A stretch of 39,162 nucleotides of DNA from a virus (Duplodnaviria > Heunggongvirae > Uroviricota > Caudoviricetes): IMG/VR virus record IMGVR_UViG_2529293036_000024, one strand, 5' to 3'. Made by a program: the position numbers. How positions within the stretch are numbered: position 1 is the stretch's first letter; each line of letters begins with the position of its first letter. Shown here piece after piece: positions 21,001 through 24,000 of the stretch.

Positions 21001-24000
21001 AAGTCCAGGTTTTACGCCGCAGTGTCTGATCAACAAAGGCACCATACCGGCGACTGAAAAGTCTTTTTTTAAAACATCAATCCCGTCAGGCAAAAGTTGT
21101 TTTTCTTTATCAGAACAGAGAAGAAGGCCGATGTCATGTACACGCATGAACAGATTGATGGATATCATGCACTAAGGCTTCATGTAATTGTCAGGGGAAC
21201 GAACCCTGGTGTTACGACGGTTTATGCTTTCGCGAATATGGTTACTCCACCTTCTGAGTATGGTATCGCCATGTATAACCCGGACGGTGAGATGATTTAT
21301 CATGGCGAAATGATGCTGCTTGACGCGAAGTTAATACCTGTTGATATCAAATTTGAAAAGGACCTTGGATATCCATGCGCAATCATGCCTGCACTGGTCG
21401 GGTATTATAACTGGAAAAGAACTCCTTATGATCGACCGATTTATACCACATCCACTGGTGCTACAGGAAATAAAATATATTCCTGTGAGCATTATTCCGG
21501 TGGTGCAACATGGGATATTCGAAAGCCGTATATAGATAAGGTCCTGGTTATTAATACATCAGTATATGATTAGTTGAAGCGAGTCTTTAATATTCATTTA
21601 AAATGTCTAAAAAGATGTATTATTAAAAAGTTTAGCGTGTTATCTGAATACAGGATATCTTAAATGAAGAGTATAGCAACACTGGTTGTGTGTGCAATCT
21701 CCGGGATTGCCTGTGTAAATTTATCTGCACATGCAGCAGAAGGAGAGCATACAATTTCTCTGGGGTATGCGCACTTTCAGTTTCCGGGACTGAAGGATTT
21801 TGTAAAGGATGCGACTGCTCATAACAGGGAGACTTTCAGTCATTTCGTCAACAGAAACTACTTTTCTTCATTGGGCGAATATACAGATGGTCGGGTCAGT
21901 GGATATGAAGGCAAGGATAAAAATCCACAGGGCATTAATATCAGGTATCGCTACGAGATAACGGATGATTTTGGCGTTATCACCTCTTTTACATGGACGC
22001 GTTCTCTCACTAACTCACAGACATTTATTGATGTGCAGTCAGCCGATCATACCAGGAAGATTAAGAATCCGGCAGCTTCTGCCAGAACGGATATCAGGGC
22101 GAATTACTGGAGTCTGTTAGCGGGGCCTTCATGGCGGGTTAATCAGTACATGAGTTTATATGCGATGGCAGGGATGGGCGTTGCTAAAGTTAGCGCTGAC
22201 CTGAAAATTAAGGACAATATTAACAGTAGTGGCGGATTTTCTGAAAGCAACAGCACGAAAAAAACCTCCCTTGCGTGGGCTGCAGGTGCACAGTTTAACC
22301 TGAATGAGAGTGTTACACTGGATGTGGCTTACGAAGGTTCCGGCTCTGGCGACTGGCGCACGAGTGGCGTTACTGCTGGCATTGGCCTGAAATTCTGACC
22401 TGTATCCGGTAACCGTTTACTACCCGCTGTGATGGCGGGTTTTTTATTGCCCGTACAGGGCAAAAACCGTAAATTATGCGTGGGTGCCTTTCGGCTGATG
22501 GCTGGAGGGTGAACCTGAAGGCCTGATGTGGAAAGGCCCCGAGTCAACTTAACGTTAACCCGAGGCCCTAACACTTCGTACCTTAAGCAAGTAGAAGGTT
22601 AGCGCCTCTCTGTAAAAGGAGTCAAGCGCTATGTCGCAAAAATCGCTTATCACCGTCACAATTTGCATGACGGTTATCTTCACCATCTGGATGTTGCACG
22701 GTTCACTGTGTGAGTTCCGGCTGAATTTGTGGGGAGCGGAGTTTGCGGCGTTCTTACAGTGTAAGCAGTAGGAAAACCGCGACGGGGACGAGAGTCCCCG
22801 TCAACTGGTTGCTGAGGTTCAGCCGATATGGCACCCGTTTCAGGTGAGAGAATGAACGATAAAATTCTCTGGTATATGCAGCGTGTTGTGAGAAATTCCC
22901 GCAACCCTGAATTTATGAATGAAGTTAAAGACGCCTGCCTTAAAAAGCAGGCGTTTTGTTTTGAGGCACCTGATGGCTTTTTGGTGCTGCGTTCTGTGCT
23001 CAGTGCTGATGGTATCCCTTATGTTCTGGTGTTGCTGGGCGTGTGTACGGGGAGTAACAGCGTTGAGCGTTACCTGCCGGAGGTGAAGACATTAACCCAT
23101 CTGGCTGGCGGACGCTGGGCTGAGTTCCATACGGCAAGGCGGGGATTTATCCGGCTGGGAAAACGACTGGGCTTTGAGCGAATGCCGGATGATGAGGATG
23201 GCTTCATGGTGTTCAGGATAGCGGTCTGACTGCTACAGTTTTCATCATTGTGTTTAAACCAACATTGTAATTCACATTCTGACCCTGCTCCGGCAGGGTT
23301 TTTTGTTATCCAGGGGGCCATTATGGGTGGAAGTAAAGGCGGTGGTGATACCAAAGTAAAACCAACAGCAGCGCAAATAGCACAGGAAGAAGTGGCCTGG
23401 AAAGGGTGGCAGGATTACAAAAATATCCTCCGCCCGGCTGAAGATAACTTCATGGAAAAGGTCGATGACCTGAACAGTGAGCAGCAGTACGACAATATTG
23501 CTGGCACCACAAATCTGGGGTATCAGAAACAGTTTGGCGAAGCACGGAAGGAGCTTGCGGGTAATCTTGCTCAGTCCGGCGTTGACCCATCCAGTGGTCG
23601 TTTTAATGCGGTAATGAATGCGAACCAGAGTGACCAGGTAACCGGGCAGATTGACACAACCACACGGGGGCAGGTATCGCAGGCAGATAAGTATGTTGCC
23701 GGGCTACAGGATGTTGCTGCTCTCGGTTCTGGTCAGAAGGCGGATGCGTTACAGAGTTTTAACTCTCTGGCAGACAGCAGTCTGGCAAAAGCTAAATCGG
23801 ATGCACAGGCGGCGTTTACGAAACAGCAGGGGCGAGCCTCTCTTGTTGGCGCTGGTCTGGGTGCGGCAGGTGCATATGCGATGCATAAGGCTGGCGGTAG
23901 CGGAGGAAGTGGCGGTGCTAAAACACCTGGCACCGGCGCTAATGCCATTCAGCATCAGGCTCAGAACTGGAGACTGTGATTATGGAGTACGGTAAATACG

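What the first reader, a model, noticed from the sequence alone, without database searches (positions are those of the whole stretch)
22449..22830. Divergent hok-like type I toxin candidate directly downstream of lom
A 46-codon ORF (22631-22771) with a good RBS encodes one TM helix followed by SLCEFR...GAEFAAF, paralleling the conserved Hok periplasmic motif. It lies in a long structured leader after the lom terminator and ends in an 8-bp GC-rich hairpin (22781-22802), as hok mRNAs do. The protein is much more divergent than the canonical hok elsewhere in the window, so it may be an unannotated small-toxin locus.
Basis: partly seen in the sequence, partly recalled or inferred. Interest (0 to 1): 0.6.

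Follow-up and report, generated by a model that had tools for sequence, protein, structure and literature searches.

The report
Second, already catalogued Hok toxin locus
The small gene after lom in this Shiga-toxin phage is a real Hok-family membrane toxin gene with the usual antisense-RNA control signals, but databases already annotate it and a recent preprint reports the identical peptide as toxic, so it is not a discovery.

Summary
ORF 22631-22771 (+) encodes a 46-aa, single-helix peptide that passes the Pfam Hok/Gef threshold (33.2 bits, cut-off 22) and matches PHROG 251 end to end.

The window is a 933W / Sp5-type Stx phage. The ORF lies between lom and L0129 and is separate from the characterised hokW-sokW locus near 35.4-35.8 kb.

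It sits in a discrete module of about 390 bp (22447-22836). Relatives of this module occur in 1750 of 5426 complete E. coli genomes, in unrelated settings.

The module carries most hok/Sok RNA hallmarks:
- a conserved 5'-3' (tac/fbi-type) closure;
- an alternative 5' pairing with an invariant ucb-like box;
- a covarying 3' hairpin;
- a sequestered start codon;
- an antisense promoter whose -10 matches sokW's, driving a hairpin that is stable only on the minus strand.

The exception is mok: this allele has no leader ORF reaching the hok ribosome-binding site.

RefSeq names the ORF "Hok/Gef family protein". The identical peptide is entry 72_1589 in Escalera-Maurer et al. (bioRxiv 10.1101/2025.08.07.668861), which reports all but three named homologs as toxic.

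Verdict: real, correctly identified, already known. Its regulation and role in the phage remain untested.

The parts
22422..22440 (+). lom intrinsic terminator. This is context and marks the upstream boundary of the module.
   Evidence: Stem-loop followed by TTTTTATTGC.
22447..22475 (+). Putative hok promoter: -35 TTGCCC (22447-22452), 17-nt spacer, -10 TAAATT (22470-22475).
   Evidence: TTG of the -35 and the T1, A2 and T6 positions of the -10 (TAnAnT) are kept across unrelated genomic contexts. It matches only 8 of 12 consensus positions, so the promoter scan did not list it.
22482..22836 (+). Predicted full-length hok-type mRNA, 355 nt.
   Evidence: The 5' end aligns with position 1 of the Rfam hok-leader model. 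Homology with relatives in other contexts ends exactly at 22836. MFE -153.7 kcal/mol, z -6.29. The transcript ends have not been mapped.
22482..22498 (+). tac-like 5' element, GGGUGCCUUUCGGCUGA.
   Evidence: It pairs with 22819-22836 in the MFE of all 20 alleles examined. The first 7 nt are nearly invariant.
22526..22552 (+). Remnant leader ORF of 8 codons (MWKGPEST*). Its conserved ATG opens a 61-79-codon ORF overlapping hok in the -1 frame in 3 of the 20 aligned alleles.
   Evidence: In this allele no upstream ORF reaches the hok SD.
22530..22540 (+). ucb-like box GGAAAGGCCCC, the alternative partner of the 5' element once the 3' tail is removed.
   Evidence: In-silico truncation re-pairs nt 1-14 with this box. 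97.9% of cells are paired across 20 alleles, with one compensatory pair. The switch appears in 12 of 20 truncated MFEs.
22532..22589 (-). Predicted Sok-like antisense RNA, about 58-62 nt: a 21-nt single-stranded 5' tail, a 16-bp hairpin, then UUU.
   Evidence: The start is placed 7 nt after the -10, as in the annotated sokW. The fold of 22518-22594(-) is -36.8 kcal/mol, z -5.3. The hairpin is more stable on the minus than the plus strand in 20 of 20 alleles, because G.U on the minus strand reads as C.A on the plus strand. No transcript data.
22596..22625 (-). Putative Sok promoter: -35 TTGACT (22625-22620), 18-nt spacer, -10 TAACCT (22601-22596).
   Evidence: The -10 is invariant in 20 alleles. 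It is identical, and positionally homologous, to the -10 before the annotated sokW start (35623-35628, start 35635). The consensus scan did not detect it.
22564..22606 (+). Predicted antisense-target hairpin of the truncated mRNA. Its loop, CCUUAAGCA, is complementary to the Sok-like 5' tail.
   Evidence: 83.5% of cells are paired on the fixed alignment, with 2 pairs showing compensatory change. This is the most variable stretch of the module.
22616..22621 (+). hok Shine-Dalgarno sequence AAGGAG. Its GGAG pairs locally with CUCU (22608-22611).
   Evidence: The local pairs are kept in 19-20 of 20 alleles.
22631..22771 (+). hok-family toxin gene, 46 aa, stop codon included.
   Evidence: Pfam PF01848, 33.2 bits against a cut-off of 22. 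PHROG 251, 85.8 bits. Identical to WP_000078907.1. Identical to peptide 72_1589 of bioRxiv 10.1101/2025.08.07.668861. dN/dS 0.31.
22742..22751 (+). Intragenic box UUUGCGGCGU that pairs with the start-codon region AUGUCGCAAA (22631-22640).
   Evidence: Present in the MFE of both full-length and truncated forms. All 20 alleles keep the pairs. The only changes are one-sided and pair-preserving, U.G to C-G and C-G to U.G.
22781..22802 (+). Stable 3' stem-loop. It probably protects the end of the 3'-processed mRNA and is not a + strand terminator.
   Evidence: 99.4% of cells are paired, and 4 of 9 pairs show compensatory changes. No T-run follows on the + strand.
22819..22836 (+). fbi-like 3' element, UCAGCCGAUAUGGCACCC.
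   Evidence: The duplex with the 5' end is -30.7 kcal/mol, against -15.5 +/- 3.4 for shuffles. Pairing is kept in all 20 alleles despite differing 3' sequences. Homology to relatives in other contexts stops here.

Best explanation
This is a hok/Sok-type type I toxin-antitoxin module. It is the second such module in the Stx phage and is distinct from hokW-sokW.

Shown here:
- The gene encodes a Hok/Gef-family peptide.
- The gene lies inside a self-contained, horizontally mobile module.
- The predicted mRNA has a conserved closure between its 5' end and a segment 34 nt beyond a covarying 3' hairpin.
- The start codon is held in a conserved long-range helix.
- The opposite strand carries a conserved promoter-like site and a hairpin that is stable only on that strand.

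Reported by others: the identical peptide is listed among Hok homologs that killed E. coli on arabinose induction.

Inferred by analogy with R1 hok/sok and with hokW-sokW:
- A weak promoter makes a stable, closed, untranslatable full-length mRNA.
- Slow 3' trimming back to the hairpin removes the fbi-like tail.
- The 5' end then re-pairs with the ucb-like box, and a target hairpin forms.
- An unstable Sok-like RNA of about 60 nt binds that hairpin and causes decay or translational block.
- When Sok-like transcription stops or is outpaced, Hok is made, inserts in the inner membrane and depolarises it.

Two further inferences:
- This allele lacks a mok-type leader ORF reaching the hok SD, so translation is probably mok-independent.
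- The locus is co-oriented with the late operon. Late read-through after induction could therefore outpace or interfere with Sok-like synthesis and add to lysis, as reported for hokW.
For: Protein:
- Pfam HOK_GEF is above the gathering score.
- PHROG 251 matches over the full length.
- All seven residues that the preprint reports as conserved in more than 80% of Hok peptides are present at the matching spacing: M1, C12, T14, L26, C27, E28, E37. C44 is also present.
- Median dN/dS is 0.31, including between alleles that lack any mok-like ORF.
- The identical peptide 72_1589 was cloned as LRP157. Only 19_179, 60_1482 and 69_1540 are named as non-toxic among the 45 tested.

Module:
- Relatives occur in 1750 of 5426 E. 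coli genomes. The homology block is 22462-22836.
- The contexts differ: after lom, between gpJ and a tail-fibre gene, after ogr in P2-like prophages, in the O157 ure island, and on plasmids.

RNA:
- Rfham-style leader evidence: the Rfam hok-leader model matches 22482-22644(+), model positions 1-157, E 2e-6.
- The predicted mRNA folds with z -6.3.
- The 5'-3' closure appears in 20 of 20 MFEs, with duplexes of -23 to -36 kcal/mol against -12 to -19 for shuffles.
- The 3' hairpin covaries.
- tac/ucb pairing is 97.9% kept.
- The Sok -10 TAACCT is invariant and identical to the one upstream of the annotated sokW.
- The antisense hairpin asymmetry holds in 20 of 20 alleles.

Precedent: hokW-sokW of the same phage behaves as a type I TA and aids phage release (PMC8621323).
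Against: - No transcript, 5'/3' end or protein data exist for this locus. The EDL933 RNA-seq/RIBO-seq study listed only Rfam-annotated sok loci, which would not include a sub-threshold match like this one.
- The Rfam match is below the gathering score, 35.6 against 59 bits.
- The sigma-70 consensus scan found no promoter on either strand in 22300-23000.
- No mok-type ORF reaches the hok SD in this allele. In R1, mok translation up to the hok SD is required for Hok synthesis (PMC9841398).
- The start codon stays paired in the predicted truncated form, so how translation is activated is unexplained.
- Only 12 of 20 truncated MFEs show the tac/ucb switch.
- The toxicity result comes from a preprint that used a heterologous SD and promoter. 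I read it from the text and Table S2, not from the figure.
Confidence: 0.85

Rival explanations
1. It is a silenced or decaying hok locus. The toxin ORF and RNA folds survive, but loss of the mok-type leader ORF means Hok is never translated from the native mRNA. The locus would then be a passenger with no present function in the phage.
For: - In this allele the conserved leader ATG (22526) gives only 8 codons, and the GTG at 22528 gives 24 codons ending 13 nt before the SD.
- In R1, premature stops in mok upstream of the hok SD abolish toxicity (PMC9841398).
- Chromosomal hok loci of K-12 type were reported unable to mediate killing (cited).
- Decayed copies exist: a frameshift in O121 RM8352 and a stop at codon 2 in an E. 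albertii plasmid copy.
- The predicted truncated mRNA still sequesters the AUG.
Against: - The ORF is intact and identical on at least 1000 contigs.
- 11 of the 20 diverse alleles lack a leader ORF reaching the SD, yet their coding sequences diverge with dN/dS of about 0.2-0.3. For 933W against ES5, dN is 0.32 and dS 1.17. That pattern is not expected for an untranslated ORF.
- Every RNA element, including the putative Sok promoter, is conserved.
- The SD AAGGAG is strong and conserved.
Confidence: 0.1
2. It is a Hok-family moron gene with no dedicated antisense antitoxin. Control would rest only on mRNA folding and transcription context, and the minus-strand 'promoter' and hairpin would merely mirror sense-strand constraints.
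For: - The promoter scan found nothing on the minus strand.
- The -10 TAACCT matches the consensus at only 3 of 6 positions.
- The same bases are also constrained on the sense strand, because they form part of the target hairpin and the SD hairpin.
- hokD/relF is a known hok homolog that, from my own knowledge, lacks a Sok.
Against: - The hairpin at 22535-22568 has three C.A mismatches on the sense strand that become G.U pairs on the antisense strand. The antisense fold is more stable in 20 of 20 alleles even though the inner stem sequence changes.
- The -10 and its distance from the predicted start equal those of the annotated sokW. Mutating the sokW promoter unmasks HokW toxicity.
- The -35 TTGACT/TTGCTC is kept at a 17-18 nt spacing.
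Confidence: 0.04
3. It is a chance ORF in an intergenic spacer between lom and L0129.
For: Short ORFs are abundant in the region. The original 933W and Sakai annotations skipped this one.
Against: Significant profile matches, purifying selection, conservation as a mobile module in 1750 genomes, and reported toxicity of the identical peptide.
Confidence: 0.01

Closest known systems
[quoted passage not shown]
   Same: 72_1589 is the identical 46-aa peptide. 72_1621 is the variant found after ogr in P2-like prophages, as in JJ1887. Both were cloned and tested by arabinose induction, and neither is among the three homologs named as non-toxic.
   Different: That study deliberately analysed only the coding sequence and left Mok, Sok and mRNA structure aside. 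The DNA it tested differs from the window by a few synonymous changes and used a vector SD. It says nothing about this position in Stx phages.
hokW-mokW-sokW of phage 933W / Sp5 (window about 35430-35760, minus strand; Takada et al. 2021, PMC8621323)
   Same: - It is in the same phage and the same protein family.
- The leader starts with the same 5' motif (GGGUGC).
- The Sok -10 is the same, TAACCT, at the same position relative to the hok SD.
- A 3' hairpin is followed by a GCACCC fbi-type segment.
   Different: - Only 13 of 35 aligned residues are identical.
- The peptide is 46 aa against 51 aa.
- hokW has an upstream in-frame ATG, annotated as mokW. The candidate has no leader ORF reaching the SD.
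- The candidate's Sok-like RNA is shorter, about 60 nt against 71 nt, with an unrelated 5' tail, so cross-regulation is unlikely.
- The candidate lies on the late-operon strand and hokW on the opposite strand.
- hokW passes the Rfam gathering score (113.5 bits) and the candidate does not (35.6 bits).
- hokW-sokW has been tested experimentally in its native context. This locus has not.
hok/mok/sok of plasmid R1 (the paradigm; summarised in PMC9841398)
   Same: - A small membrane toxin.
- A cis-antisense RNA against the leader.
- tac/fbi closure of the full-length mRNA.
- A tac/ucb alternative after 3' trimming.
- A stable 3' stem-loop upstream of the fbi element.
- A Sok promoter overlapping the hok translation start region.
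   Different: - 13 of 44 aligned residues are identical.
- There is no mok reading frame in this allele.
- The start codon is sequestered by an intragenic box rather than, as far as predicted, by mok-dependent coupling.
- It is phage-borne, inside a late operon, rather than a plasmid stability locus.
HokA of E. coli (NCBIfam NF007290, equivalog)
   Same: It is the best-scoring named Hok model for this peptide. Some sources label the peptide 'protein HokA'. From my own recollection, the two share the MxQK N-terminus and the AAFLxCK C-terminus.
   Different: It scores 38.4 bits against an equivalog cut-off of 89. The preprint places HokA in a different 60%-identity cluster, 93 against 72. The 'HokA' label is therefore loose.

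Membership tests
Hok/Gef protein family (Pfam PF01848) | Profile match at or above the curated gathering score | tested here: met
   33.2 bits against a cut-off of 22, E 4e-8, residues 8-44 on profile positions 6-42 of 42. PHROG 251 scores 85.8 bits over the full length.
Hok/Gef protein family (Pfam PF01848) | Peptide of about 45-55 aa with one N-terminal transmembrane helix | tested here: met
   46 aa. The 15-residue hydropathy maximum is 2.25 over residues 5-20, and the C-terminal half is amphipathic or polar. No topology experiment has been done.
Hok/Gef protein family (Pfam PF01848) | Positions conserved in more than 80% of Hok peptides (M1, C16, T18, L30, C31, E32, E41 in logo numbering; C or Y at 48) | tested here: met
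   M1, C12, T14, L26, C27, E28, E37 and C44 are present at the same relative spacing. The criteria come, the sequence, and invariance among 9 relatives.
Hok/Gef protein family (Pfam PF01848) | Toxic to E. coli on overexpression | not testable with these tools
   Reported in the literature. The identical peptide 72_1589 (plasmid LRP157) is among the 45 tested homologs, and only three others are named as non-toxic. This is a preprint, and I could not view its figure.
[quoted passage not shown] | Long-range pairing of the mRNA 5' end (tac) with a 3' element (fbi) that closes the full-length mRNA | tested here: met
   GGGUGCC-UUU-CGGCUGA pairs with UCAGCCG-AUA(U)-GGCACCC. This is present in the MFE of 20 of 20 alleles. 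Duplex energies lie far beyond shuffles. The core is 98.5% paired.
[quoted passage not shown] | Stable 3' stem-loop upstream of fbi, plus an alternative tac/ucb pairing once the tail is removed | tested here: met
   The hairpin at 22781-22802 has 4 of 9 pairs with compensatory changes. tac/ucb is 97.9% paired with one compensatory pair. The switch is seen in 12 of 20 truncated MFEs. This is in silico only, and 3' processing itself was not tested.
[quoted passage not shown] | cis-encoded antisense RNA (Sok) with its own promoter, complementary to the hok leader | tested here: inconclusive
   - In favour: an invariant -10 identical to the one before the annotated sokW, a conserved -35, and a strand-asymmetric hairpin in 20 of 20 alleles.
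- Against: no hit in the consensus promoter scan.
- No transcript data are available.
[quoted passage not shown] | mok: a leader ORF overlapping hok whose translation up to the hok SD is needed for Hok synthesis | tested here: not met
   In the window, the upstream ORFs end at 22552 (8 codons) or 22602 (24 codons), before the SD at 22616. ORFs reaching the SD exist in 9 of 20 relatives, with differing starts.
[quoted passage not shown] | Rfam RF01794 ('sok', which in practice models the hok leader on the sense strand) at the gathering score | tested here: not met
   35.6 bits against a gathering score of 59. The match covers model positions 1-157 at E 2.2e-6. hokW in the same window scores 113.5 bits.
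[quoted passage not shown] | Antitoxin neutralises the toxin, with RNase III-dependent decay of the duplex | not testable with these tools
   This needs genetics and Northern blots.
HokA equivalog (NCBIfam NF007290) | Score at or above the equivalog cut-off | tested here: not met
   38.4 bits against 89. The generic Hok subfamily model NF007279 scores 22.7 against 73.

The most novel reading that the evidence does not exclude
The Stx-phage allele, like about half of cluster 72, may be a naturally mok-less hok/Sok system. Hok translation would then be gated only by RNA refolding and the Sok-like RNA. Because the locus is co-oriented with the late operon, it could be switched on by late read-through after prophage induction. 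That would make it a second lysis- or release-modulating toxin, and one that partly masks the phenotype of the published hokW-sokW deletion in Sp5.
Probability: 0.3. Interest if true: 0.35.

Novelty: already known. Interest (0 to 1): 0.15.

Why it matters
There is little new here. The gene is annotated by RefSeq and PHROGs, and the exact peptide has been catalogued and reported toxic.

Three points have practical value:
- Reference records for 933W (AF125520) and Sakai (NC_002695) still omit the gene. The published work on hokW-sokW in Sp5 does not mention, in the sections I read, that the phage carries a second Hok locus. This matters when interpreting the two-fold release phenotype of the single deletion.
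- The regulatory RNA anatomy of this Hok cluster had not been described in the sources I could read, and it is laid out here with coordinates.
- The lack of a conserved mok frame, in a cluster whose coding sequence is still under purifying selection, offers a natural test of whether mok coupling is dispensable in some Hok systems.

Tried and rejected
- Rfam at gathering thresholds found nothing in the region. Only the permissive search showed the leader match.
- The sigma-70 and terminator consensus scan gave no promoter on either strand. The only + strand terminator before the gene is lom's. The 3' hairpin scored as a terminator only on the minus strand.
- I first expected an R1-type mok start just downstream of the Sok hairpin complement. 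No start codon exists there. The conserved ATG at 22526 gives 8 codons.
- The genome-contig scan with the protein alignment returned only 6 loci. One was spurious (L019). Two carried titles of Gram-positive organisms and look like contamination. One was partly masked with N.
- The full-text search for WP_000078907 returned nothing.
- The Sp5 morphogenesis paper does not mention lom or these ECs locus tags in its main text.
- The ciprofloxacin transcriptome paper mentions only hokE.
- The Pas sRNA preprint cites hokW only in its reference list.
- The EDL933 RNA-seq/RIBO-seq paper lists only Rfam-annotated sok loci, so it gives no expression evidence for this one.
- Table S1 of the Hok preprint is truncated in the held copy, so I could not check whether cluster 72 is represented in T1TAdb.
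- The 'HokA' label was considered and rejected.
- All five were repeated with corrected input.
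Full report
**What is at the coordinates**

The window matches Stx-converting phages of the 933W / VT2-Sakai (Sp5) type at 100% identity over the region. The annotated 933W record places the finding in the late region, between lom and L0129, on the strand of the late operon.

ORF 22631-22771 (+) encodes MSQKSLITVTICMTVIFTIWMLHGSLCEFRLNLWGAEFAAFLQCKQ. Its surroundings are as follows:
- AAGGAG lies at 22616-22621, 9 nt before the ATG.
- The lom terminator is at 22422-22440.
- The hairpin GACGGGGAC-GAGA-GUCCCCGUC is at 22781-22802.
- The peptide has one hydrophobic segment, about residues 5-22.

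The stem has 9-10 bp rather than 8. No T-run follows it on the + strand. The element extends beyond 22830.

**Is it a Hok?**

The evidence says yes.
- Pfam HOK_GEF scores 33.2 bits against a gathering score of 22 (E 4e-8).
- PHROG 251 ('MokW-like host killing') matches residues 1-46 at 85.8 bits.
- NCBIfam's HokA equivalog and generic Hok subfamily models match only below their cut-offs. It is a family member but not HokA.
- Identity to HokW of the same phage is 13 of 35 aligned residues, and to R1 Hok 13 of 44. 'Divergent' is a fair description.
- All positions that a recent survey found conserved in more than 80% of Hok peptides are present at the right spacing.
- Across 13 distinct 46-codon alleles, the median pairwise dN/dS is 0.31.

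**Already known**

PGAP annotates exactly this ORF as WP_000078907.1, 'Hok/Gef family protein'. Phage records call it 'MokW-like host killing', 'host toxic membrane protein', 'prophage host toxic membrane protein' or 'small toxic polypeptide'. The exact sequence occurs on at least 1000 contigs and also carries the names 'protein HokA' and 'Small toxic polypeptide'. Only the original 933W and Sakai records omit it.

Most decisively, the identical peptide is entry 72_1589 in Table S2 of Escalera-Maurer et al. (bioRxiv 10.1101/2025.08.07.668861). That entry belongs to 60%-identity cluster 72, a high-abundance cluster, and was cloned as plasmid LRP157. The text states that 42 of 45 tested homologs were toxic on arabinose induction, and that only 19_179, 60_1482 and 69_1540 were not. 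By that statement the peptide is toxic, although I could not view the figure. The same paper places HokA in cluster 93 and says it did not analyse Mok, Sok or mRNA structure.

The experimentally studied hokW-sokW of Sp5 (Takada et al. 2021, PMC8621323) is the other locus in the window. HokW is 51 aa and lies on the minus strand near 35.4-35.8 kb. The sections of that paper that I read do not mention a second hok.

**A discrete mobile module**

A sensitive DNA search of 5426 complete E. coli genomes finds relatives in 1750 of them. Outside Stx phages, the homology block corresponds to window 22462-22836. The settings are varied:
- after lom in short-tailed Stx phages;
- between gpJ and a tail-fibre gene in long-tailed lambdoid prophages;
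- after ogr at the end of P2-like prophages, next to serS or tRNA genes;
- in the O157 urease island;
- on IncI and IncF plasmids, and in Salmonella, E. albertii and E. marmotae.

The flanks differ on both sides, so the module boundaries are defined by comparison.

**RNA anatomy: the sense strand**

Rfam's 'sok' model (RF01794) hits the hok mRNA strand. At hokW it matches the minus strand, whereas sokW is annotated on the plus strand. At the candidate it matches 22482-22644(+) over model positions 1-157, at 35.6 bits and E 2e-6, below the gathering score of 59. I took 22482 as the 5' end from this match.

- Full-length fold. The 355-nt RNA 22482-22836 folds at -153.7 kcal/mol (z -6.3). The MFE closes GGGUGCC..CGGCUGA (22482-22498) onto UCAGCCG..GGCACCC (22819-22836).
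- Conservation of the closure. It appears in the MFE of all 20 distinct alleles aligned. Duplex energies are -23 to -36 kcal/mol against -12 to -19 for shuffles, although the 3' partner sequence differs between lineages.
- 3' hairpin. It has compensatory changes at 4 of 9 pairs and 99.4% pairing. This fits the R1 arrangement, in which a stable stem-loop bounds the 3'-processed, active mRNA (background from PMC9841398).
- Truncated fold. Cutting the sequence after the hairpin in silico makes the 5' end re-pair with the invariant box GGAAAGGCCCC (22530-22540). That pairing is 97.9% kept and has one compensatory pair. A new hairpin forms at 22564-22606, whose loop is complementary to the 5' tail of the predicted antisense RNA. 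This switch appears in 12 of 20 truncated MFEs.
- Start-codon region. AUGUCGCAAA pairs with UUUGCGGCGU inside the coding region (22742-22751). All 20 alleles keep these pairs, and the only changes are one-sided and pair-preserving.
- SD. The GGAG of the SD pairs locally with CUCU.

**RNA anatomy: the antisense strand**

On the minus strand, TTGACT (22625-22620) is followed by an 18-nt spacer and TAACCT (22601-22596). The -10 is invariant in the 20 alleles. It is the same hexamer, at the homologous place, as the one 7 nt upstream of the annotated sokW start. Takada et al. showed that mutating the sokW promoter unmasks HokW toxicity.

The predicted RNA runs from about 22589 to about 22530 and is about 60 nt long. 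It has a 21-nt free 5' tail, a 16-bp hairpin and a UUU end. The hairpin contains three G.U pairs that read as C.A mismatches on the sense strand. In all 20 alleles the antisense fold (-18 to -24 kcal/mol) is more stable than the sense fold (-12 to -16 kcal/mol), even where the inner stem sequence has changed. This is the best evidence available here for a functional antisense RNA.

There are caveats. The consensus promoter scan reports no site on either strand, and I found no transcript data. The one EDL933 RNA-seq/RIBO-seq study with sok entries lists only Rfam-annotated loci.

**The putative hok promoter**

It consists of TTGCCC (22447-22452), a 17-nt spacer and TAAATT (22470-22475). Its key positions, TTG and TAnAnT, are kept across contexts. 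It matches only 8 of 12 consensus positions.

**The departure: no mok**

R1 needs translation of mok at least up to the hok SD (PMC9841398). hokW has an upstream in-frame ATG, annotated as mokW. At the candidate, no start codon exists at the R1-equivalent place.

A conserved ATG at 22526 has a GAAGG 4 nt upstream. It opens 61-79-codon ORFs overlapping hok in the -1 frame in 3 of the 20 aligned alleles (JJ1887, A36 and the E. albertii chromosomal copy), but only 8 codons here. Overall, 9 of 20 alleles have some ORF that reaches the SD, with differing starts, and 11 have none.

The coding sequence is under purifying selection even between mok-less alleles. For 933W against ES5, dN is 0.32 and dS 1.17. 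I therefore infer that Hok translation in this cluster does not depend on a mok frame. How the sequestered AUG is opened is unexplained. The alternative, that the allele is translationally silent, is kept as a rival at about 10%.

**Mechanism and role**

By homology and anatomy, this is a type I toxin-antitoxin module working as hok/Sok does:
1. A closed full-length mRNA is made.
2. 3' trimming triggers refolding.
3. A short-lived antisense RNA blocks or destroys the refolded mRNA.
4. Hok is produced when the antisense RNA is lost, and it damages the inner membrane.

Only the sequence and structure features are shown here. Toxicity is reported by others, and every dynamic step is inferred.

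The role in the phage is unknown. The position is the classic moron site around lom, and the gene lies on the late-operon strand. This suggests, without showing, activation by late read-through after induction, in parallel with the reported contribution of hokW to phage release. Roles in lysogen addiction or exclusion of other phages are equally open.

**Verdict**

The finding is real but ordinary: an annotated, catalogued member of the Hok family that is reported toxic. The remaining open points are modest. They are the untested Sok-like RNA, the mok-less design, and the fact that Sp5 and 933W carry two Hok loci.

Noticed in passing
window 22828-23229 (L0129 / ECs_1237): The annotated start ATG at 22828 lies inside the fbi-like element of the hok module. 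An internal ATG at 22852 has a better SD (AGGTGAGAG). The PHROG 610 profile, 124 positions long, aligns from residue 1 of the shorter protein. The true start is therefore probably 22852.
   Followed up: partly
window 22931-22954: A terminator-like hairpin (ACGCCTGC..GCAGGCGT) followed by TTTTGTTTTG lies inside the L0129 reading frame. It scores on both strands. It could end transcripts leaving the hok module, but this was not examined.
   Followed up: no
window 38107-38195 (-): Rfam sRNA-Xcc1 (RF02221) matches above the gathering score (69.1 bits), about 2.4 kb from hokW-sokW. The EDL933 RNA-seq table lists an sRNA-Xcc1 with very high read counts at a corresponding distance from one of its sok entries.
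   Followed up: no
window about 35430-35760 (-), the hokW-mokW-sokW locus: The annotated mokW is not an overlapping out-of-frame ORF as in R1. It is an in-frame N-terminal extension of hokW (MLNTCRLASYVPKGKEKQA followed by MKQQ...).
   Followed up: partly
window 22780-22803 (-): The 3' hairpin of the hok module also scores as a minus-strand terminator, with the tail CGGTTTTCCT. A few G.U pairs in relatives favour a + strand function, but a bidirectional role is not excluded.
   Followed up: partly
L012 1691-1832 (E. coli O121 RM8352); L020 about 545-690 (E. albertii plasmid pEA5_1): These are decayed copies of the same module. One has a frameshift in a G-run. The other has a stop at codon 2 (ATGTAG) and a damaged 3' hairpin. 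Individual copies do erode.
   Followed up: partly
L014 (record titled Planococcaceae MAG) and L016 (record titled Vagococcus sp.): Near-identical copies of this enterobacterial P2-type ogr-hok module appear in records titled as Gram-positive organisms. This is most likely assembly or binning contamination. L014 is also partly masked with N.
   Followed up: no
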